From: a virus
Taxonomy: Duplodnaviria; Heunggongvirae; Uroviricota; Caudoviricetes
Virus record (IMG/VR): IMGVR_UViG_3300042535_000037
Location: 36,031-100,030 of that record
DNA: 64,000 nucleotides
Direction: 5' to 3' (one strand)
The notes below the pieces were generated by a model. That model was not told the DNA's origin, did no database searches, and saw only the letters and a program-made list of their open reading frames with translations. Shown here piece after piece: positions 9,047 to 36,860 of the stretch. Numbering within the stretch: the stretch's first letter is position 1; every line of letters begins with the position of its first letter. A program made the position numbers and the translations under genes.

Positions 9047-9085
9047 CCTTTATATATACAAAACACCATTACTATATTGCTGGCA
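9047..9085 (+). promoter_or_regulatory. promoter cassette upstream of tRNA
   Basis: cctttatatatacaaaacaccattactatat. Confidence 0.45.
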
Positions 9086-9141
9086 TAAACAGCATAACAT
9101 GTCTTGTAAAGCGGGGAGTTATCAACCCCGCACCTCCTAAA

Positions 9142-9216
9142 GAGTCCGTAGCTCAGTTGGTAGTTAGCGTCTGACTGTTAATCAGAAGGTCGTAGGTTCG
9201 AACCCTGCCGGATTCG
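9142..9216 (+). tRNA. tRNA-Asn (GTT)
   Basis: cloverleaf: acceptor GAGTCCG/CGGATTC, U8, GG in D-loop, anticodon loop CUGUUAA, T-loop TTCGAAC, discriminator G; D-stem only 3 bp (TT insertion). Confidence 0.7.
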
Positions 9217-9267
9217 TAATATTTTTATACAGTTATCTTTTTATACTATATTCTCTTTTCTCCTTTT

Positions 9268-15800: not shown

Positions 15801-16824
15801 CTTCAACTCAGATGAAATCCAGCAGGTAGGAGTATATATCCACAATAACAACTTGGAGACATTTAGTTTCACTAATGAAGAATTCTATAACTGTGCTAGA
15901 CCTATGGAAATACTCAACGGTCAATCAGTTACAGTTACAAGTTCTCACTGGAACAATATTCACGATGCAACTGCACCACCAGTCTACGTCAATGGAGTTG
16001 AATTCCCTGTTACAGCTTCAGGTAGAGCAATTCTCTTCGGTGGTAACTCTCCAACTAACGAAGGAACTACATATACAGGATACAACAATGTATTCACTGA
16101 TATAGAGCAAACTCTATTTCCAACATACTCTGAAGCAGTAGGAACACCAGTTACAGTGCGTGAATATAACGCTACACTATCAAATGTATCTAAAATATTC
16201 TCTACTTCATCCTGCATAGAAAATATTGCAATACAAACATACCATAATTCACCAGTTAAAACCTTTGAATTTACAAATGCAAATGCTTTGACTTGGAAAT
16301 GGTATGTTAACAATACTTTGGTAGAAACAGACACTAATACGTACTTCCCATCACGTATTCAGAGCGGAATGACAACTGGAACCAATGTCTCAGCAATATG
16401 CACAGACAACGGTGATACACTCCGCATGACTTGGATTAGAGGAAATGGAACAGAAGTTAACGGTGTAATCTACACTAGATACCCGTATACAAGTTCTCCA
16501 AAGCAACTGAAGGGCAATGATGTTTCATTCTCTCTTACTCTCAATGGAAATGCAGACACAAAATGGTATGTAGATAATGTTCTTGTGGAAACAGATTCTT
16601 CCTCAAGTCCAACTTACATATACAATGCCACTGTATCTGGAACACATGTAGTAAAAGCAGTGACATCAGAAGAGACATACACTTGGAATCTTAACGTAGA
16701 AAACCCACAGCAAAAGTTCTACGTAGGTGTAATCACAAGAATAGGTCAAGTGCTATCTTGGGATACAAGAAAACCAACATATGACGACCAAGTTGTAGAC
16801 GGGTTCACCATAATTACAAGGTGA
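12802..16824 (+). CDS. giant secreted right-handed beta-helix (pectin-lyase-fold) repeat protein, adhesin/receptor-binding-like
   Basis: signal peptide; repeated NxxxxN/beta-helix turns (NNTVFTRTN, IAHNHIYSG, DNVIHDLRGSGIWM, ITNNAQDSIWLD); Pro/Thr linker. Confidence 0.75.
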   Translation: MNLKSLLIFLFVFLLTINVGSAATPPIVYVATDGTGDYNCDGTADQVQLNDALLFAYNNRASGYTTVYLRSGTYWIDSQIFLTNNIILTGDSTAKIKLIDDCPWQRTYTGALAYSSSGTQTLPMIMARSGHNTGFTITNIIIDGNSQGNTDVPFGQGWYNLLNFYQCTHVSLDHVTLQYGKSDGFKFQSGSYASMTNCNVNKIGHDAGYFLYSNYITFTNNTVFTRTNSACRISSGAHIVIAHNHIYSGTITTADGGGSSTGPGIEIDLDGSEYCYDCEIYDNVIHDLRGSGIWMTSSNADGGRDVHIYNNIIYNVGKYTYFNGYSMGGITLFQFNNSIIENNVFNEAGVGALIYAEGTDSPTGGSKLYHTTFRNNIVINTNDQLPTTSGGSTYIYAVPIMNHDGTYSRIHAYNNDFYNNYNNLVYKSHVATDSNNLAVDPQFVDATNHNYHLKSTAGHYNNGNWVIDAVSSSLIDAGLSTSDYSDEPEPNGNRINIDAYGNTAQASKSPTETTPTPDPDPVNPEPEPVVVEIQDPVDNRLRSLSPTTVYSSSTYIDAGNIASTSSTVRDLIWYDLTNYNDSSQVTSAELKLFWYYQTSRTSDTIIEIYRPAATWSTSTATWNNANTWYDANGVLGGSTPYDSITFPSTQSPTNSYYSFDVTDLVQAYAEGTYTNTGFLIKTRTENNDYVAFYSLDNGNSSRVPVLDISSTAVNIEAYSPTSNPTKTVGQSQIFTTQLTATGDVEWSVDGIIKEYDLNTQHASYTFTPTAARTYTIRAETPTAYKSWSLTATSNSTSNPASNVTTSVSGIAYVATTGSDTTGNGSISLPYATITKALTTTAPTIMVKGGNYNLATPITRSNVIIKGYNGNAVFDHSDDTGTAFTVTGRTNITLQNLIIRNYEYGVYGTTSLTNLIVENCSITNNAQDSIWLDQINANGIYLYNSTFADNEYHGVHLSNQEVGKLIQNVVIENNDFYDCPSNLLDFRSNVTDVTCSENYYYFNSDEIQQVGVYIHNNNLETFSFTNEEFYNCARPMEILNGQSVTVTSSHWNNIHDATAPPVYVNGVEFPVTASGRAILFGGNSPTNEGTTYTGYNNVFTDIEQTLFPTYSEAVGTPVTVREYNATLSNVSKIFSTSSCIENIAIQTYHNSPVKTFEFTNANALTWKWYVNNTLVETDTNTYFPSRIQSGMTTGTNVSAICTDNGDTLRMTWIRGNGTEVNGVIYTRYPYTSSPKQLKGNDVSFSLTLNGNADTKWYVDNVLVETDSSSSPTYIYNATVSGTHVVKAVTSEETYTWNLNVENPQQKFYVGVITRIGQVLSWDTRKPTYDDQVVDGFTIITR

Positions 16825-16837
16825 ACCAACACTTTTT

Positions 16838-17095
16838 TATATATGAAAGTACTATTACTACTTACTTGGAAAATGCATCCAAGTTGCCATAGTAAAAAAC
16901 TCCTCTAAGAAAACCTCGGTGTACAATCCACCGAGGTTCAACGAATCCCACAAGCATCAAGGCGATGCAACACAACTGGCGATGATGGAACGATGAGCGA
17001 AAGCATGTCCTAGCTGGTAAGTAGGCAAGTGCGCATAACCGAAATACCGTGTGTCCTTTGCAAAGGGCTTGGTTCAATTCCAAGGTGGGATACTT
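16838..17095 (+). ncRNA. candidate structured ncRNA driven by a canonical promoter
   Basis: promoter+leader then only an 11-codon ORF; ~50% GC segment with 10-bp hairpin (16911-16938), GAAA-loop helix, tRNA-T-arm-like hairpin cttggTTCAATTccaag, and a 7-nt pairing ATCCCAC(16945)/GTGGGAT(17086). Confidence 0.35.
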
Positions 17096-17124
17096 TTTTA
17101 TACATAAACCACTATTACTACAGC

Positions 17125-17460
17125 ATGGAAGAAAAAATAGTGGATTTCTCAGACCTTCTTTCTCCCGAAGCAAAACAGAAATTTGAAGAAGTTAAACTCG
17201 TTGAAAAAAAGATGGGTAAGCTTCACGAAGAACTTGCAGTCCTTTCCTCAGTAAGACTATCTCTTCAGGAGCAATATAGAGCTTTATGTCCACCACTCGT
17301 TGTTATGGTAGAAACAAAGCTCAAGTGTAGAGAATGTGAAAAATTTATAAGCATAAAAGGGCTTCATGTTAACTCAGAAATAACTTGCCCGCACTGCTCT
17401 GCAAAATTCGGAATCAGAGTAAGAGCAGATAAACCTTACTTTATGTTATACAGGTGGTAA
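17125..17460 (+). CDS. coiled-coil zinc-ribbon protein
   Basis: canonical promoter at 17088-17124; CRECEKF...CPHCSAKF. Confidence 0.55.
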   Translation: MEEKIVDFSDLLSPEAKQKFEEVKLVEKKMGKLHEELAVLSSVRLSLQEQYRALCPPLVVMVETKLKCRECEKFISIKGLHVNSEITCPHCSAKFGIRVRADKPYFMLYRW

Positions 17461-18542: not shown

Positions 18543-19223
18543 ATGAGTAGGAAATACTTGAAAATAGATACCCTCTGGAAGAGAAGAGAAGGAAAGAAAG
18601 GAGCAGTAATTCCAAATGACTACTCCAATCCAGTTTTTCCAAACATAAAAATGTGGATTGCCACAGAAAAAATCAATGGAGAAAACATTCGTATTATGTA
18701 CGATGGCTCTACAAAGACAGTTTCATATGCTGGAAAAACTGATGATGCAGAAATATTTCCAGAGATAATGGATTATCTTCAGGAAAAATTCAGCATAGAG
18801 AAATTCAGAGCTCTTGATAATTTTGACGAAGATACCGACATAACAATTTTCGCTGAGGCTTGCCATAAAAGAATATTAGATTCATATGTATATTTAAAAT
18901 CAGACGAAGTTGCCAAGGTCATCATTTTTGATGTTAAAATAGGCAAGTGGTGGCTGGAACACAACAATGTAATTTCAATTGCAACACATTTTGTTGTTGA
19001 TAATGCACCAGTTCGCTACATAGGAACCATTGAAGAATTGATTAAATTTGTAGTTAAGGAGCAGCAAAGTGTACTTACATATCCTAAAGAAGTAACATTC
19101 GAAGGAATTGTTTGTACTCCACATCCAATGGTGCTCAATCGTGACGGAACTCCCGTTAAGTTCAAGCTAAAGGTTGAAGATTTCCGCAAGCTAAAAGCCA
19201 TAGGCGAAGAATACAAGGTGTAA
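18543..19223 (+). CDS. minimal RNA-ligase-like nucleotidyltransferase (Rnl2-like core)
   Basis: motif I KINGEN, motif III FAEACH, motif IV EGIVC, motif V KFKLK. Confidence 0.55.
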   Translation: MSRKYLKIDTLWKRREGKKGAVIPNDYSNPVFPNIKMWIATEKINGENIRIMYDGSTKTVSYAGKTDDAEIFPEIMDYLQEKFSIEKFRALDNFDEDTDITIFAEACHKRILDSYVYLKSDEVAKVIIFDVKIGKWWLEHNNVISIATHFVVDNAPVRYIGTIEELIKFVVKEQQSVLTYPKEVTFEGIVCTPHPMVLNRDGTPVKFKLKVEDFRKLKAIGEEYKV

Positions 19224-19225
19224 AA

Positions 19226-19771
19226 ATGGTAATCGGATTTACAGGAACTCATTGTACAGGAAAGAGTACTCTTGTTAGACAATTAACTAAAATTGGCTAC
19301 CGCGAAGTATCAAACTCAATTCGTGACTATATAGCTAAGTTCCCGCAATATCAGGAACAATTCTTCAAGGGAGATGAGGCTCTTCAGTTTCACTTCTTAC
19401 ATCAACATATAAACAGAACATGTGCTCCCCATTATCCTTCAGCTTCAGACCGCACCTCAATAGACTATCTTGCTTACTACATGCGTCTACCCGAACAAAA
19501 GTTCCCTGAAATGTATAAGGAGCTCGCTATGTCTGCTCTCATCAACTACGATGTAATTTTCTATACTCCAATAGAGTTTGAATTCATAGATGATAATCTA
19601 CGATTTAAAGACGATTCGCGTGTTCAGGTAGATGAAAACATCTGCTCAATAATTCGTGAGATAAAAAAGGATGATACATACGTAGACATAATACCAGTGA
19701 CAGGCTCCATTCAAGAACGAATGAACACAATTGCAGATACTCTTAGAGAAATGAGAATGGTCATTCACTGA
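19226..19771 (+). CDS. P-loop kinase (polynucleotide/nucleotide kinase-like)
   Basis: Walker A GFTGTHCTGKST; starts 2 nt after ligase-like gene. Confidence 0.55.
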   Translation: MVIGFTGTHCTGKSTLVRQLTKIGYREVSNSIRDYIAKFPQYQEQFFKGDEALQFHFLHQHINRTCAPHYPSASDRTSIDYLAYYMRLPEQKFPEMYKELAMSALINYDVIFYTPIEFEFIDDNLRFKDDSRVQVDENICSIIREIKKDDTYVDIIPVTGSIQERMNTIADTLREMRMVIH

Positions 19772-22032: not shown

Positions 22033-22704
22033 GTGATTATCATGACAAAAATTGTAGAAATTGAACGTGAAAACGGATGCATCGAATGTGTTTCTCATAG
22101 AGCAGTTAATGGAAATCCTCTTACTATTCTCGAAGATGGTAAAAGAATTAAGTACTCTGAACTAAAATGGAAAATGGAAAAAGGAGAGATACCAGCCGAT
22201 ATGTCTATTTCTTACTTATGTGGAAATCCTAATTGTGGAAATCCAGACCATATGACCCTTATTACTAAAAAAGAAAAATATAACTTCTTCTCAAGAAATG
22301 GTATAGACTTCTATATTGGAAAATCAAATCTCACTCCCGAAATAATCAGATACATCTATGTTGCACCAGCAGAAATGAGCAATAAAGATGTTTCTCAAGA
22401 CGTATTCTTCAAATTCGAAAGAAGAATAAAGACAGATACAATATCTGGAATTCGTAAAGGAAAGAGGTTTGTAGAAATGACTCAAGACCTTGAATCTCCA
22501 ATTCTAGGCAAAGGAATCCGTAGCGAGATGTCAACTGGTAAAAGTAAAAAGAAATTTAGAATTACGGTTGACCAATTAACTCCTGAGCAAATAGAAAAAA
22601 TCAAAGTAGAAGATGCTGTAATTAACCACTTCACCTCAAAATTCAATGTTTCCAAAAAAACCATTAAAGCTATTCGTAGTGGAAAATACTCAGTATCATT
22701 ATGA
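22033..22704 (+). CDS. HNH-like (HNH_3-type) endonuclease-related protein
   Basis: SHRAVNG...YLCGNPNCGNPDHM...resembles HNH_3 HR..DH.NG..N motifs. Confidence 0.4.
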   Translation: MIIMTKIVEIERENGCIECVSHRAVNGNPLTILEDGKRIKYSELKWKMEKGEIPADMSISYLCGNPNCGNPDHMTLITKKEKYNFFSRNGIDFYIGKSNLTPEIIRYIYVAPAEMSNKDVSQDVFFKFERRIKTDTISGIRKGKRFVEMTQDLESPILGKGIRSEMSTGKSKKKFRITVDQLTPEQIEKIKVEDAVINHFTSKFNVSKKTIKAIRSGKYSVSL

Positions 22705-32705: not shown

Positions 32706-34694
32706 GTGATGGTTATGAAAAAATACTTTATTTTATTTTTACTCCTACTCATATCAACGGCAAGTGCAGTTGATGTGAACCCACCCTTAGTATTTGCGGG
32801 TAATACAACTTCAGTTACTCTCAATTACTCAACTACAGTTGATGCCTTAACATTCTATTCTCAAAACAATACCCTAGTAATGGATGATATATCTCATCAG
32901 TTTACTACTACAGGAACGATGAATGTTACTTTCAACGGTTTATTAGAGCTTACTCATACAGGTAGCACAGGTACTTGGACCGTTGGCGGGCTACAGGATG
33001 GAAACTATTCTCTATACATAGACGACTCCTTCTATGAAACAATTTCAAATGGAGATGCTGTATCCCTTAATTCTATAGCAAAATATGAAATTCAACCAGC
33101 AGACGATGTTATGACTTTGAACATGACTTATTGGGAACCTCTCAATGAAACATGTGCTAAATTCACCATCTCAAATGTCTATACAGCATGGTATCCACAG
33201 CTTTCATACACAGTAGCAGACCATACATATTTCCTTTACCGTGACTCAACAGGAACTCTCCTTGCAACTAACGCTACTACATCAACAAACCAAACCATCA
33301 CACTTATAGGAGACTCCATACTTACTTCAGGAAATTATACCATCACTCACATTTTAACATCACTTGTAGGAGTAACTGTTCCAGAAATTACATCATACTC
33401 ACCATCTACACCATCATTCTCAATATTACCAAGTGGTCAAACATCTCAGAGAACATTTACAATTTCATCTGCCAATGACCCCAACTTAGACGTAAAATGG
33501 TATTATGGTGACAAATTCTACAGTTCATACGCCAATGATGAAAATTACATATCTACTTATGGATATACATTAGTAGACACTGTAGAAGTCAATTCTACAT
33601 CAACAACACATACATTCACAACTGATGAACCTGAAACAATAGGTGTAATTGCTCGTCTTATGAATGAGTCAAGTGGTCTCTATGAAGACAAAATCTGGAA
33701 TTGGGTAGTTCAGGAACCAGACTTTGATGAATCTATGGAATATAGTAGTGTTCCTACAGAGAAACCAAACACTATCATCCTTACATCTTCAAATGAGCAC
33801 ATATCAAGTGTAATCTTAGAGTATGAAATTGATGGGGAATACACTAACGTAACAATGGAATCTACATACTCTAATTATGAATATGGAGAAACCATTAACA
33901 ATGAAACTTCATACACATATACTGAAATATTTGAATGTGAAATTAACCCAATGGAAGAAGGAACCTATAACATTGCATCATACTATGTAACTCAGGATGG
34001 AGTTCAATACTCTATAGATGGAAATCTTGAGTTTACAGCAGCAGTAGATGGTTCCACAGTTCAATATACAACTCGTTCTTCCGGTGGCTCATCTTCCGGT
34101 GGTAGTGGTGGAAGTTCAAAGACAACTCAGACCCAAGAAATCATAGAAAAACTCGTAGTTAAAGATGGAGTGGAAACATTCAAGAAGACTTCAGAACACT
34201 CTCTATATTCAGTTTCATCATCAGATGAATCATTTACTGTGCTTGTAAAAGATATAGACAGTGAATTAGAAGATGAATCCGTCTACAAAGAAATGGACAT
34301 TTCAACAACTGAAAACGAAACAGTTGACATAACATTCCTTGTAGATACCTCTTGGCTTAACGAAAATGGCGGCTCTGTAAAACTCCTTCATTATACAAAC
34401 GATGAATGGGTAGAAGTTCCAGTAAAGATGCTCTCAAAGACAGATGACTATGTTAAATATGGAGCAACATTAACTTCATACTCTCCATATGCAATCGTGG
34501 CATCCAACGCCAACGTAGGAACCTCTACGAGCGACTCAGACGTAGGAACCTACATTATCATAGCAGTACTTGTAATAGGAGCTCTAGCGTACCTAAGATT
34601 CAAGCCAAGGTCAAAGAAACCCTTTAGTCTTAAATCCCTAAACAAGACTAAACAAAAATCAAAGCCAAAAAAGAGAAATTGGACAGAATTATGA
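32706..34694 (+). CDS. cell-surface protein (signal peptide, Gly/Ser linker, C-terminal TM + basic tail)
   Basis: canonical promoter; S/T-rich. Confidence 0.6.
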   Translation: MMVMKKYFILFLLLLISTASAVDVNPPLVFAGNTTSVTLNYSTTVDALTFYSQNNTLVMDDISHQFTTTGTMNVTFNGLLELTHTGSTGTWTVGGLQDGNYSLYIDDSFYETISNGDAVSLNSIAKYEIQPADDVMTLNMTYWEPLNETCAKFTISNVYTAWYPQLSYTVADHTYFLYRDSTGTLLATNATTSTNQTITLIGDSILTSGNYTITHILTSLVGVTVPEITSYSPSTPSFSILPSGQTSQRTFTISSANDPNLDVKWYYGDKFYSSYANDENYISTYGYTLVDTVEVNSTSTTHTFTTDEPETIGVIARLMNESSGLYEDKIWNWVVQEPDFDESMEYSSVPTEKPNTIILTSSNEHISSVILEYEIDGEYTNVTMESTYSNYEYGETINNETSYTYTEIFECEINPMEEGTYNIASYYVTQDGVQYSIDGNLEFTAAVDGSTVQYTTRSSGGSSSGGSGGSSKTTQTQEIIEKLVVKDGVETFKKTSEHSLYSVSSSDESFTVLVKDIDSELEDESVYKEMDISTTENETVDITFLVDTSWLNENGGSVKLLHYTNDEWVEVPVKMLSKTDDYVKYGATLTSYSPYAIVASNANVGTSTSDSDVGTYIIIAVLVIGALAYLRFKPRSKKPFSLKSLNKTKQKSKPKKRNWTEL

Positions 34695-36860
34695 TTCTGT
34701 CTCATACATATTTCTTATTTCAATAATATTCTTGTGACAAATATATGGCATCTTTTCTTTCTTTCTTAATAGCCATCCATAGAACTCATTGTCTTCCTTC
34801 GTGAACAACTTATTCTCATGAACACTTCTACTCTTCTTTAATTTGTGAGCAACATCTCTAGCCTTCTTCCATCTCCTATAATACGCGCCCTTGATTTTTA
34901 CCATCTTTCCTTCTGCATCCTCAAGGACATAACCTTCAATGTACTCTCCGTTCCTCTTGAATTCCATAGCAGTAGACTCTTCTACAAACTTAGTGAATTC
35001 ATTGGAATCATTAATTTCCCCATCATACTCCTTTACTTCTGCTCCAATCAACTTTCCAAGACTAACCAACTGTTCATATGGTAATCTCTCAAGCTTGAAG
35101 TCATTCTTTACTACATCGAGTAAAATTACTTCCTTTCTTTCATACTCTATTATATGTGGGTCATTTTCAGGGTCAAGAACCTCAAACACAAAGGTTACAT
35201 TGAAGTCCTTGATATATTGCTCAAGTGCATCTATGTTAAGACTCTTGGTTGCAATATGCTTGAACCAATCCGCGTATATACCTTCGGTAGTACTCTTACT
35301 TGCATAAAGCATTCCCAACTCTTCATCTCTTCCTATAAGCCCTAGGAACCCATTATACTTCACGAACTTATGTATCGGGTACTTAGCATTTACACTTATC
35401 TTTTGGAACGATGCAGACTCATTTTCATCAATATTAAAGAACTTCTCATAAGCTCTCATGACTATCTTGCCTGTTTGGACATTGACAAATAATCCTCTTG
35501 CCTTGATTGTCTGCTCATTCCAAATCTTCTTCCTAAATACCTCTCTGTCAAAATTATAGCTTACAATCTTGCCATCACACATGAAAACCTTGTTTATATT
35601 GTCATTTGCGTTCAGCTTTTCAAGCATTTCTCCCTCTGGAAGAACCTTTTCTTCATATTGCCTGAATACCGTATTAACTGTATAAACAAAGTCATATCCA
35701 TTTTCACTAATCTCAAATGCCCTGAGATTATCTCCCTTTTCTACTTCAGAATCTACTATGAAGCATCTTTCATTCATTACGGGTAACTTTGCTATATTTC
35801 TATGACCAAATACCTGATAATGATTCTCAGGAGCATTTTCATTGAAGGACTTAACTACTTCTCCTATTGACTTGTACTGACCGACACCATTTATCATCTG
35901 CTCAGTACTAATCAAAGCCAAGAACTGCGGAATATTGCTTAATCCACCGTGAGTACAAAGGAACCTTTCTCCATTATATTCATAATAGAAACACTCAAGC
36001 AGCTTCCTACACAACATTCTGACCTGCTTCTTAGTAACCCCATTAGGTTCCAAGTCCTTTGGCAAAGTCCTGTAAGTAAACTCCCTGCTCTGACAACTAA
36101 ATGGTACATTATCAGGTGAATTTCCCCACAACCAGAGCCATCTCTCATGGTTTCCTTCTAGCAAAACTACGTTCTTCTTTTCTGCAATTTCACAAAGGAA
36201 CTTAACGACCTTGGCATTCTCGATGCCTCTATCAATATAATCCCCTGTGAATATATAGAATTCATCATCTCTGATTTCACCATCTAGATACTCCATCAAT
36301 GCAGTGTGACATCCATGAATATCTCCGATATGGTGAATCTTCTTATATCCATTCAAATTTACACAAATATTCTTAACTTCTCCAAAGAAGTTATCCTTGT
36401 CAATAAACTTGACATACTTCTGTGTTTCAAAGTTATCGAATCTTGAGTACATCCTGTCAATTACATCTTCAGGCACGAACTTGTATGCATCTCTACTTCT
36501 ATTCCTTTCCTTGCAAATTTCAATTGGAACATCTGTAAAGTCAACACATCTCAATCTGTACCTATACTTTTCACAAAGAGTCTTATATCTGGTGAAATCT
36601 GTTCTCTTGCTATGGGTAGCATCAATTACTATAAAGTCTCCCCTATCCATTCTCTTCTCAAGAATCTCGAACATTAAATCCCAAACGTAATTATCATTCC
36701 TCTGGCTAATTCCCATATTTCCTTCAGCCGTAAGTTCAGGACTCTGACACAGGAGCCTTATATCATCAAGACAAATAGTATATGGCTCTAATCCATTCTC
36801 CCTAATCCAAGTGCTCTTTCCACTTGCAGGGCTACCTCTTGTAACTATTAAATATCTCAT
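34689..36860 (-). CDS. pnkp: polynucleotide kinase-phosphatase-ligase (bacterial Pnkp-like trifunctional end-healing/sealing enzyme)
   Basis: N-terminal P-loop GSPASGKST; central GDIHGCH, GDYIDRG, GNHE phosphoesterase; C-terminal nucleotidyltransferase motif I KYNGF. Confidence 0.7.
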   Translation of the reverse strand: MRYLIVTRGSPASGKSTWIRENGLEPYTICLDDIRLLCQSPELTAEGNMGISQRNDNYVWDLMFEILEKRMDRGDFIVIDATHSKRTDFTRYKTLCEKYRYRLRCVDFTDVPIEICKERNRSRDAYKFVPEDVIDRMYSRFDNFETQKYVKFIDKDNFFGEVKNICVNLNGYKKIHHIGDIHGCHTALMEYLDGEIRDDEFYIFTGDYIDRGIENAKVVKFLCEIAEKKNVVLLEGNHERWLWLWGNSPDNVPFSCQSREFTYRTLPKDLEPNGVTKKQVRMLCRKLLECFYYEYNGERFLCTHGGLSNIPQFLALISTEQMINGVGQYKSIGEVVKSFNENAPENHYQVFGHRNIAKLPVMNERCFIVDSEVEKGDNLRAFEISENGYDFVYTVNTVFRQYEEKVLPEGEMLEKLNANDNINKVFMCDGKIVSYNFDREVFRKKIWNEQTIKARGLFVNVQTGKIVMRAYEKFFNIDENESASFQKISVNAKYPIHKFVKYNGFLGLIGRDEELGMLYASKSTTEGIYADWFKHIATKSLNIDALEQYIKDFNVTFVFEVLDPENDPHIIEYERKEVILLDVVKNDFKLERLPYEQLVSLGKLIGAEVKEYDGEINDSNEFTKFVEESTAMEFKRNGEYIEGYVLEDAEGKMVKIKGAYYRRWKKARDVAHKLKKSRSVHENKLFTKEDNEFYGWLLRKKEKMPYICHKNIIEIRNMYETES

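What the first reader, a model, noticed from the sequence alone, without database searches (positions are those of the whole stretch)
16838..17095. Promoter-driven GC-rich ORF-less segment: candidate structured ncRNA A
A canonical promoter-leader is followed by an 11-codon ORF, then ~210 nt at ~50% GC in a 37% GC genome. It contains a perfect 10-bp hairpin, a GAAA-loop helix, a tRNA T-arm-like hairpin (cttgg-TTCAATT-ccaag), and a 7-nt terminal pairing ATCCCAC/GTGGGAT that places the T-arm-like hairpin right next to a 3' acceptor-like strand. The antisense 103-aa ORF has junk-like composition. Possible tRNA-like or other structured RNA; a complete cloverleaf could not be folded by eye.
Basis: seen in the sequence. 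Interest (0 to 1): 0.6.

Follow-up and report, generated by a model that had tools for sequence, protein, structure and literature searches.

The report
Virus tRNA-like gene with interrupted anticodon arm
The flagged segment is a separately transcribed gene of an archaeal virus for an RNA with a complete tRNA shape, except that 66 extra bases, lacking the normal archaeal splicing signal, interrupt its anticodon arm, so it is either an unusually spliced tRNA or a tRNA mimic.

Summary
Window 16831-17099 is one promoter-to-terminator unit. It has the virus's consensus archaeal-type promoter, an ~80-nt leader with two hairpins, then a 148-nt tRNA-shaped RNA (16945-17092).

- 7-bp acceptor stem
- D arm with GG in the loop
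- anticodon stem ACACA(A)/(U)UGUGU
- 4-bp variable arm
- canonical T arm and discriminator A

A 66-nt purine-rich, poorly structured insertion (16984-17049) follows an anticodon-like loop CUGGCGA. ARAGORN calls a tRNA only after that segment is deleted. None of 2000 control sequences did so.

No bulge-helix-bulge motif exists, Rfam finds nothing, and no homolog was found in any collection.

The same viral genome, just outside the window, holds a second intact tRNA body with an over-long anticodon arm and a cluster of decayed copies. One of these shares part of the insertion.

My best reading is a tRNA-derived, non-decoding tRNA mimic (0.4). Rivals are a tRNA spliced by a non-canonical route (0.25) and a decaying chimeric tRNA gene (0.2). 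RNA ligase and end-healing genes lie nearby. This is a new variant of a known kind, of moderate interest.

The parts
16831..16861 (+). Archaeal-type consensus promoter (T-run/TATA-like TTTTTTATATAT plus conserved downstream ACTATTACTAC). The transcription start is inferred at about 16862-16864.
   Evidence: The start site is inferred from the 30-31 nt motif-to-ATG spacing of leaderless genes.
16864..16884 (+). Leader hairpin 1 (ACUUGGA-AAAUGCA-UCCAAGU) at the inferred 5' end of the transcript.
   Evidence: The leader as a whole has z = -4.68.
16873..16908 (+). 11-codon ORF (MHPSCHSKKLL*) in the leader. Translation is untested.
16912..16938 (+). Leader hairpin 2: perfect 10-bp stem with a 7-nt loop, ending 6 nt before the tRNA-like 5' end.
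   Evidence: The tRNA-Asn unit has an analogous hairpin before the tRNA.
16945..16951 (+). Acceptor stem, 5' strand (ATCCCAC).
16954..16968 (+). D arm GCATC-AAGGC-GATGC (4-5 bp, GG in the loop).
16970..16975 (+). Anticodon-stem 5' strand (ACACAA).
16976..16983 (+). Anticodon-like loop CTGGCGA (C32 U33 GGC G37 A38), plus T16983, which can pair with A16975.
16984..17049 (+). 66-nt insertion: 50% GC, 64% purine, no significant fold, no BHB. It begins with a D-arm-like motif, GATGGAACG.
16992..17009 (+). A counterpart with different inner pairs exists in paralog B4.
   Evidence: Read from the sequence. A-B4 alignment (p about 0.03). Not part of the MFE fold.
17050..17054 (+). Anticodon-stem 3' strand (TGTGT).
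17055..17066 (+). Long variable arm CCTT-TGCA-AAGG (class II type).
17068..17084 (+). T arm CTTGG-TTCAATT-CCAAG (G53:C61, T54, C56 and A58 present).
17085..17092 (+). Acceptor stem 3' strand GTGGGAT plus discriminator A. No CCA is encoded.
17094..17099 (+). T-run (TTTTTT). Inferred archaeal terminator, overlapping the promoter of the next gene (ATG 17125).
   Evidence: The terminator role is inferred.

Best explanation
This is an independently transcribed, tRNA-derived gene of an archaeal (methanogen-type) tailed virus.

Shown:
- A consensus viral promoter, an ~80-nt leader with two hairpins, and a T-run terminator bracket the unit.
- Between them lies a 148-nt RNA with every element of a class-II-like tRNA body: a 7-bp acceptor stem, a D arm with GG, a variable arm, a canonical T arm and a discriminator A.
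- The anticodon arm carries a 66-nt insertion directly after an anticodon-like loop.
- The insertion has no bulge-helix-bulge motif.

Inferred:
- The intact acceptor/T/D body forms regardless of the insertion, so the transcript is matured like a tRNA. RNase P would cut before A16945, the 3' end would be trimmed after A17092, and CCA would be added.
- As transcribed it cannot decode on the ribosome.
- It most likely acts as a stable tRNA mimic. It could be a decoy or substrate in the conflict over tRNA cleavage and repair, for which the virus carries a kinase-phosphatase-ligase fusion and a second RNA ligase 1.4 kb downstream.
- It arose by duplication and recombination among the virus's own tRNA-like genes.
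For: Transcription unit.

Cloverleaf: it is recovered by the MFE fold in the 156-nt and the 236-nt context.

ARAGORN: it calls a tRNA only after the insertion is deleted (5 of 713 variants, all with anticodon GGC). The null gave 0/1000 shuffles and 0/1000 genomic windows.

Stem quality: read from the sequence, all 27 pairs in the five stems are Watson-Crick. GC is 49% against 36% for the window.

No BHB: the script and junction-by-junction checking found none. The motif geometry was confirmed from PMC4090602.

Parallel with the real tRNA: the tRNA-Asn unit has the same layout of promoter, a 5' hairpin, and a strong hairpin 6-10 nt before the tRNA.

A second intact unit: unit C (L084 19825-19922) is a second tRNA body with an over-long anticodon arm. 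A 7-bp stem encloses 31 nt, and I found neither a BHB motif nor a canonical anticodon loop next to the outer stem.

Decayed paralogs: one shares A's T arm and acceptor (20/23 nt). Another, B4, shares motifs of the insertion (p about 0.03).

Origin of the insertion: it starts with a D-arm-like motif, GGCGATGATGGAACG, compared with unit C's D arm GGCGAATGGAACG.

RNA repair genes. Homologs of the PF09414 ligase sit next to tRNA genes or clusters in about 20 of 53 IMG/VR loci.
Against: - The insertion has no significant fold of its own (z +0.56 and +0.97), which is odd for a functional domain.
- A canonical anticodon-loop pattern (C32 U33 NNN R37 A38) sits right after the 5' stem strand in both A and B4. 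Removing exactly 66 nt restores a perfect 6-bp stem, which is what an intron would look like.
- No function for such a mimic is demonstrated anywhere.
- No homologs, so no covariation test.
- No expression data.
Confidence: 0.4

Rival explanations
1. It is an interrupted but functional tRNA gene. The 66-nt insertion (after position 38 or 39) is an intervening sequence removed by a route that does not use the bulge-helix-bulge motif. One candidate route is a virus- or host-encoded nuclease followed by the virus's end-healing and ligase enzymes. The product would be an 83-nt class-II tRNA with anticodon GGC.
For: - Deleting 16984-17049 gives a 6-bp anticodon stem, the loop CUGGCGA with U33 and G37, and an ARAGORN tRNA call. 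The spliced form folds as a cloverleaf with z = -3.0.
- Paralog B4 has CUCAGAA at the same place. Its CAG triplet (Leu) fits a long variable region (read from L084).
- The insertion is unstructured, as many introns are.
- The virus encodes a Pnkp-like kinase-phosphatase-Rnl1 fusion and a PF09414 ligase next to a P-loop kinase.
- The literature has proposed Rnl2 ligases of the archaeal virus HGTV-1 for tRNA intron removal (PMC8651126). One HGTV-1 tRNA gene has an intron (PMC13532342).
Against: - No BHB, hBH or HBh' motif at any junction that gives a valid tRNA.
- The position is 38/39 or 39/40. Euryarchaeal endonucleases are described as strict for BHB at 37/38 (PMC4090602).
- Anticodon GGC (Ala) does not fit the body: there is no G3:U70, and the arm and A73 are Leu-like.
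- A8 replaces U8.
- For unit C I could find no single excision that gives a canonical anticodon arm (and inspection).
- No splicing endonuclease domain was seen among the about 30 window proteins scanned one by one or the top 25 of 38 families in the batch scan.
Confidence: 0.25
2. It is a decaying, chimeric tRNA gene. Recombination or duplication between tRNA genes put tRNA-derived sequence into the anticodon arm, and the locus is no longer functional.
For: - The same genome has a 480-nt ORF-less stretch (unit B) full of degenerate T arms and tRNA fragments.
- The insertion begins with a D-arm-like motif, and GGCGATG occurs twice in A (and the sequence).
- The anticodon and the body disagree.
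- HGTV-1 also carries tRNA pseudogenes (PMC13532342).
Against: - All stems of A are perfect Watson-Crick, while the B copies have mismatches.
- GC is 49% in a 36% genome, including the insertion.
- The locus keeps a perfect consensus promoter and a terminator.
- The insertion seems older than the A/B4 split, yet A stayed intact.
Confidence: 0.2
3. It is not a stand-alone RNA gene. It could be a cis element: a leader or attenuator with an 11-codon ORF for the downstream zinc-ribbon gene, or a tRNA-like attachment site for integration.
For: - The mini-ORF's ATG lies at the spacing used by real genes.
- Archaeal proviruses often integrate in tRNA genes (PMC8651126).
Against: - The downstream gene has its own perfect promoter 31 nt before its ATG, and a T-run separates the two units.
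- Attachment sites carry one part of a tRNA, not both halves with all stems.
- No integrase domain turned up in the window proteins scanned. The batch scan listed only the top 25 of 38 families.
Confidence: 0.05
4. It is a chance resemblance, or the region is protein-coding on either strand.
For: A 103-aa antisense ORF and an in-frame GTG extension of the downstream gene exist.
Against: - No Pfam match.
- The ORFs run through two promoters.
- The statistical controls argue against chance.
Confidence: 0.02

Closest known systems
Archaeal intron-containing pre-tRNAs (bulge-helix-bulge introns), including the intron-bearing tRNA gene of the haloarchaeal virus HGTV-1
   Same: A tRNA gene with an extra segment in the anticodon arm. 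The length is within the known range of 11-129 nt (PMC4090602). The context is an archaeal tailed virus that also encodes RNA ligases (PMC8651126 and PMC13532342).
   Different: There is no BHB or relaxed BHB. The insertion lies after position 38/39 and not at 37/38. The host appears to be a euryarchaeon, whose endonuclease is strict. The anticodon does not fit the body.
Class II tRNAs (Leu/Ser type)
   Same: A long variable arm with a 4-bp stem, a 7/5 acceptor/T arrangement, A73 as in archaeal tRNA-Leu (from my own knowledge), and G37.
   Different: The D loop is short (5-7 nt), position 8 is A, the first pair is A1:U72, and the anticodon-like triplet GGC is neither Leu nor Ser. The anticodon arm is interrupted. 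Neither Rfam nor ARAGORN calls it on the genomic sequence.
Euryarchaeal tRNA-Trp intron that carries a box C/D small RNA
   Same: A long (~65-100 nt) segment in a tRNA anticodon arm. GAUGAUGG and CGAUGAG look like C boxes. There was a weak snoZ30 hit (E = 4.1).
   Different: There is no CUGA D box, the box spacing is wrong, and no K-turn can be drawn. The BHB motif that flanks the Trp intron is absent here.
Non-decoding tRNA mimics of bacteria and viruses: YrlA/Y-RNA-like RNAs, the tmRNA tRNA-like domain, and the small stable RNAs in the phage T4 tRNA cluster (from my own knowledge)
   Same: A tRNA body (acceptor/T/D elbow) joined to a non-tRNA extension where the anticodon arm would be. These RNAs are encoded near RNA repair genes or tRNA clusters.
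   Different: - There is no Rfam match to YrlA or tmRNA, and ARAGORN finds no tmRNA.
- The RNA ends are at the acceptor stem, whereas in YrlA they are at the opposite end.
- There is no G3:U70.
- No Ro60 or SmpB homolog appeared in the window proteins scanned.
Group I introns in bacterial and phage tRNA genes
   Same: The 5' exon would end in U and the insertion ends in G.
   Different: 66 nt is far too short for a group I ribozyme, and there is no Rfam match.

Membership tests
tRNA (Rfam RF00005 / ARAGORN) | 7-bp acceptor stem with the T stem stacked directly on it, plus a discriminator base | tested here: met
   ATCCCAC/GTGGGAT, T arm directly adjacent, A17092.
tRNA (Rfam RF00005 / ARAGORN) | T arm with 5 bp, G53:C61 and a loop T54-T55-C56-R57-A58 | tested here: met
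   CTTGG-TTCAATT-CCAAG. The T-loop pattern occurs only here and in tRNA-Asn in the window.
tRNA (Rfam RF00005 / ARAGORN) | D arm two nucleotides after the acceptor, with G18 G19 in the loop, plus U8 and A14 | tested here: inconclusive
   The D stem and GG are present. However, position 8 is A and the loop is only 5-7 nt (read from the sequence).
tRNA (Rfam RF00005 / ARAGORN) | Anticodon arm of 5 bp plus a 7-nt loop in the gene or after removal of a recognised intron | tested here: not met
   75 nt lie between ACACA and TGTGT. The arm is regular only after an arbitrary 66-nt deletion.
tRNA (Rfam RF00005 / ARAGORN) | Detected by the family model on the genomic sequence | tested here: not met
   No RF00005 hit at E<=10 in 16700-17300. 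ARAGORN finds nothing, with or without the intron option, at the default threshold.
Archaeal BHB-intron pre-tRNA | Two 3-nt bulges on opposite strands separated by a 4-bp helix at the exon-intron junctions | tested here: not met
   Exhaustive script with bulges of 2-4 nt, plus a check of each junction that gives a valid tRNA. Geometry from PMC4090602.
Archaeal BHB-intron pre-tRNA | Intron at 37/38 (the only position reported for Euryarchaeota) | tested here: not met
   The only deletions that give a tRNA start after position 39 or 40 in ARAGORN's count.
Archaeal BHB-intron pre-tRNA | Actual excision and ligation in vivo | not testable with these tools
   No transcript data.
Box C/D small RNA in a tRNA intron | C (RUGAUGA) and D (CUGA) boxes forming a K-turn, with C'/D' boxes and 10-12 nt guides | tested here: not met
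   There is no CUGA. The C-like boxes are 3 nt apart. No K-turn can be drawn (by hand). snoZ30 scored 15.5 bits against a gathering score of 50.
tmRNA | tRNA-like domain with G3:U70, a tag reading frame and pseudoknots | tested here: not met
   ARAGORN -m found nothing. Position 3:70 is C:G. No Rfam hit.
YrlA / Y-RNA-like tRNA mimic | Match to the family model, a Ro-binding stem formed by the RNA ends, and an adjacent Ro60 homolog | tested here: not met
   No Rfam hit. The RNA ends are at the acceptor stem. No TROVE domain appeared in the per-protein Pfam scans or the top 25 of 38 families of the batch scan.
Group I intron in tRNA | Catalytic core P3-P9 (at least ~200 nt) | tested here: not met
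   The insertion is 66 nt and has no Rfam hit.

The most novel reading that the evidence does not exclude
The virus uses a tRNA splicing route that does not depend on the bulge-helix-bulge motif. Insertions placed just 3' of the anticodon loop would be cut out and the halves rejoined by virus-encoded end-healing and ligase enzymes. This would make production of a class-II (Leu-identity: A73, long arm) tRNA with an alanine anticodon (GGC) depend on infection. That would amount to programmed Ala-to-Leu mistranslation, or a private decoding resource.
Probability: 0.1. Interest if true: 0.9.

Novelty: new variant of a known kind. Interest (0 to 1): 0.55.

Why it matters
If the RNA is made and stays unspliced, it is a family of archaeal-virus tRNA mimics. 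I know of no such family in archaeal viruses. It sits next to RNA repair genes and is relevant to how viruses and hosts fight over tRNA integrity.

If it is spliced, archaeal tRNA splicing is not limited to the bulge-helix-bulge rule, and a virus can gate a tRNA by its own enzymes.

Either way, standard tRNA finders and Rfam miss these genes, so viral tRNA inventories are incomplete. The element is small and sharply bounded, so it can be tested directly by small-RNA sequencing or in vitro processing.

Tried and rejected
Family and motif searches on the element:
- Rfam at gathering and E-value thresholds found only tRNA-Asn.
- ARAGORN with introns and in tmRNA mode found nothing at the default threshold. 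At lowered thresholds it gave only implausible calls, such as tRNA-His using part of the insertion.
- BHB search, strict and relaxed, found nothing relevant. The single 3-4-3 hit would cut inside the T arm and gives no tRNA.
- Box C/D, K-turn, hammerhead and group I readings of the insertion were rejected by hand.
- A tmRNA-like tag ORF: stop codons in all three frames lie within 14 nt of the insertion. I judged this unremarkable.
- Complementarity of the insertion to the rest of the window: none.

Homolog searches:
- IMG/VR: T-arm pattern, promoter pattern, and three neighbouring proteins as single queries. All found nothing.
- Metagenome contigs: a loop-anchored pattern gave 7 hits, all chance matches in coding DNA.
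- GTDB genomes: an 18-mer of the T arm and acceptor gave 16 hits, about the number I estimated by chance, and none was in a tRNA.
- 'phages' blastn: no match.
- The nearest RNA ligase homologs (38-50% identity) lie on contigs with no tRNA and no shared gene order.

Other checks:
- I could not reach more of the 183-kb source contig. Only Logan contigs of the same virus were returned.
- Codon usage gives no hint. GCT and GCC together make 48% of Ala codons.
- A relaxed structural scan of the window is at noise level.

Full report
**What the window is.** The window is 36% GC. It carries a strongly over-represented motif, (C/T)TTTTTATA(C/T)ATAAA, with 36 matches against 4.06 expected. The motif extends to a ~30-nt consensus. 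It lies 30-31 nt before gene ATGs (leaderless) or 38-42 nt before them (short leader). That is the behaviour of an archaeal TATA-type promoter.

The gene content agrees with an archaeal virus:
- The 1340-aa ORF upstream of the finding has Disaggregatase domains.
- A 662-aa protein has a PGF-pre-PGF domain.
- Just upstream of the window, the same virus encodes a family B DNA polymerase, an XPD-like helicase and an RFC-like ATPase.
- The polymerase's listed (best-ranked, near-full-length) matches in the phage collection are all haloarchaeal tailed viruses, at 24% identity.

I therefore treat this as a tailed virus of a methanogen-type euryarchaeon. The host assignment is an inference. Its proteins have almost no close relatives in the 5.8-billion-protein collection. 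An independent Logan assembly is identical over the element.

**Checking the observation.** All listed features are present (details in the observation check). The promoter at 16833 is a perfect copy of the consensus. A T-run at 17094-17099 ends the unit and overlaps the promoter of the next gene (ATG 17125). Of the GC peaks I checked against the ORF list, only this region and the tRNA-Asn gene (9142-9216) lie outside long ORFs.

**What it is.** RNAfold of 16940-17095 and of the whole inferred transcript 16864-17099 gives the same picture. The features, in order, are:
- two leader hairpins (16864-16884 and the perfect 10-bp hairpin 16912-16938; leader z = -4.7)
- six unpaired nucleotides
- a cloverleaf body:
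  - acceptor ATCCCAC/GTGGGAT
  - two nucleotides
  - D arm GCATC-AAGGC-GATGC
  - stem ACACA/TGTGT
  - variable arm CCTT-TGCA-AAGG
  - one nucleotide
  - T arm CTTGG-TTCAATT-CCAAG stacked on the acceptor
  - discriminator A

The spacing between arms is exactly that of a tRNA. The only anomaly is that 75 nt, instead of 7, lie between the two strands of the anticodon stem.

I deleted every internal segment that left 70-100 nt (713 variants) and ran ARAGORN at default settings. That gave 5 tRNA calls, all with the loop CTGGCGA (anticodon GGC) and a 5' junction after T16983 or G16984. Removing 16984-17049 (66 nt) gives a perfect 6-bp anticodon stem and a cloverleaf MFE with z = -3.0. The same scan gave no call in 1000 dinucleotide shuffles or in 1000 other windows of this genome. 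The tRNA derivation is therefore solid, at about 0.9.

**Is the insertion an archaeal intron?** The archaeal splicing endonuclease needs a 4-bp helix flanked by two 3-nt bulges. Part of the anticodon pairs with the intron, and Euryarchaeota are reported to have only strict motifs at 37/38 (PMC4090602).
- An exhaustive search with bulges of 2-4 nt found no such motif at any junction that yields a valid tRNA.
- Checking the five ARAGORN-valid junctions by hand also fails.
- The insertion lies after position 38 or 39.
- It is 50% GC and, counted from the sequence, 64% purine. It folds no better than shuffles (z +0.56; whole arm +0.97).
- Box C/D, K-turn, hammerhead, group I and tmRNA readings were each examined and rejected. 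Rfam reports only insignificant hits.

**The mature form would also be odd.** The anticodon-like triplet is GGC (Ala), but there is no G3:U70. The body has a long variable arm and A73, which I recall as the archaeal Leu identity set. Position 8 is A, and the D loop is short.

**Relatives.** No homolog of the RNA was found in IMG/VR, JGI metagenome contigs, GTDB genomes or GenBank phages. Covariation therefore cannot be tested. However, the same viral genome supplies paralogs 3.6-7 kb beyond the right end of the window. These are on L084, where position x corresponds to window-equivalent position x+50975.

*Unit C* (L084 19825-19922) has these features:
- a 7-bp acceptor
- a D arm GCG-AATGGAA-CGC
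- a 5-nt variable loop
- a perfect T arm and a discriminator A
- in the anticodon position, a 7-bp stem enclosing 31 nt

Its MFE is a cloverleaf. It has no BHB motif, and by inspection no canonical loop next to the outer stem. ARAGORN calls tRNAs for 28 of its deletion variants, but with many inconsistent anticodons. I could find no single excision that gives a standard anticodon arm.

A strict structural scan of 80.5 kb finds exactly three units: tRNA-Asn, A and C. Twenty shuffled genomes gave three such hits in total.

*Unit B* (L084 ~16625-17085) is a promoter-driven 480-nt stretch with four degenerate T arms.
- One copy has a T arm plus acceptor strand that is 20/23 identical to A's.
- The last copy, B4, has the same order of parts as A:
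  - an acceptor starting AT
  - a stem AGUGCU/AGUAACU in the anticodon position (MFE)
  - a heptamer CUCAGAA right after its 5' strand
  - an insertion that begins UGUAACG (A: UGAUGGAACG)
  - shared motifs AGCGAAA..CAUGUC..UAG..GUAA (local alignment p about 0.03)
  - a variable region related to A's (read from the sequences)

So the insertion appears to predate the A/B4 duplication. A has kept every stem perfect, while the B copies have decayed. The insertion also starts with a D-arm-like motif (GGCGATGATGGAACG, against unit C's D arm GGCGAATGGAACG). This points to an origin by duplication or recombination among tRNA-like genes.

**Context.** The true tRNA-Asn gene has the same unit layout as A: a consensus promoter, a hairpin at the 5' end, and a strong hairpin 6-10 nt before the tRNA. 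This supports tRNA-type processing of A.
- The virus encodes a kinase-phosphatase-Rnl1 ligase fusion (34689-36860, minus strand). It resembles the fusion found in many Firmicutes phages at ~39% identity.
- 1.4 kb downstream of A lies a PF09414 RNA ligase next to a P-loop kinase.
- Distant homologs of that ligase sit beside tRNA genes or clusters in about 20 of 53 IMG/VR loci.
- For the archaeal virus HGTV-1, Rnl2 ligases have been proposed to act in tRNA intron removal, and one of its tRNA genes has an intron (PMC8651126; PMC13532342).

**Interpretation.** What is shown is a separately transcribed, tRNA-derived gene with an intact tRNA body and a non-BHB insertion in the anticodon arm, belonging to a small family within one virus. 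What is inferred is its fate.

I give 0.4 to a non-decoding tRNA mimic that is matured by RNase P, 3' trimming and CCA addition. The supporting points are:
- unit C, for which I found no single excision that restores a standard anticodon arm
- the body/anticodon mismatch
- A8
- the retained GC and sequence motifs of the insertion

I give 0.25 to a tRNA that is spliced by a non-canonical route. The supporting points are:
- the anticodon-loop pattern in both A and B4
- the exact restoration of the stem
- the unstructured insertion
- the neighbouring ligases

I give 0.2 to a decaying chimeric tRNA gene. The rest goes to cis-element or chance explanations.

**Verdict.** It is not a member of any curated RNA family, and it fails the defining test for an archaeal intron-containing tRNA. 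It is best filed as a new variant of a known kind: virus-encoded interrupted tRNA or tRNA mimic. Interest is moderate. It could rise sharply if junction reads show BHB-independent splicing.

Noticed in passing
L084 19690-20165 (window-equivalent ~70665-71140; tRNA-like body at L084 19825-19922): A second promoter-driven ORF-less unit in the same virus (unit C). It has a perfect tRNA body with a 7-bp 'anticodon' stem enclosing 31 nt, and no BHB. ARAGORN and Rfam do not call it. The whole transcript folds with z = -4.1.
   Followed up: partly
L084 16600-17090 (window-equivalent ~67575-68065): A 480-nt promoter-driven ORF-less stretch (unit B) with four degenerate T-arm hairpins and tRNA fragments. 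One copy is 87% identical to A's T arm plus acceptor. Another shares motifs of A's insertion. It looks like tandemly duplicated, decaying copies, including a degenerate terminator/promoter junction (CATCTATTACTTCTT).
   Followed up: partly
window 9049-9225: The tRNA-Asn(GTT) gene has its own consensus promoter and a ~62-nt leader with two hairpins. The leader holds a 13-codon ORF ending 2 nt before the tRNA, and it contains CACCTCCT, which matches the 3' end of 16S rRNA.
   Followed up: partly
window 34689-36860 (-), 18543-19223 (+), 19226-19771 (+): There are two RNA repair modules. One is a kinase / metallophosphatase / Rnl1-type ligase fusion (phrog_8238, E = 9e-193; ~39% identical to proteins of SPbeta, Twort and A9 phages). 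The other is a PF09414 ligase next to an AAA_28 P-loop kinase.
   Followed up: partly
window, 36 sites (e.g. 2783, 8414, 17094, 43335, 62419): A ~30-nt promoter consensus, ACTTTTTTATACATAAA(A/C)CAC(T/C)ATTACT. Motif-to-ATG distances fall in two classes, 30-31 nt (leaderless) and 38-42 nt (short leader with a GGTG-like motif).
   Followed up: yes
whole window / source contig: The protein database lists the source contig as 183,084 bp. A 2026 paper calls HGTV-1, at 143,855 bp, the largest archaeal virus genome. If this contig is one viral genome, it would be larger. It has no close relatives in IMG/VR or in the protein collections.
   Followed up: no
L037 5340-5560 (IMGVR_UViG_3300008490_000092): A phage tRNA-Leu-like gene (perfect acceptor, D arm and T arm) has a ~130-nt insertion in the anticodon region. 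Rfam does not match it to any family, including group I introns. It lies ~2.5 kb downstream of a homolog of the PF09414 RNA ligase (match at 2158-2826).
   Followed up: partly
L059 13594-13698 (IMGVR_UViG_3300028888_000045, a 335-kb contig): A 105-nt tRNA-shaped element with an 8-bp anticodon-position stem, a 6-nt loop and an extra hairpin in the D region. ARAGORN does not call it on the genomic sequence.
   Followed up: no
L014-L066 (53 IMG/VR loci): Distant homologs of the PF09414 RNA ligase lie next to tRNA genes or large tRNA clusters in about 20 of the 53 loci (e.g. L015, L016, L022, L024, L055, L061).
   Followed up: partly
window 22033-22704: An HNH homing-type endonuclease ORF (PF13392, E = 7e-7) lies among genes of unknown function.
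   Followed up: no
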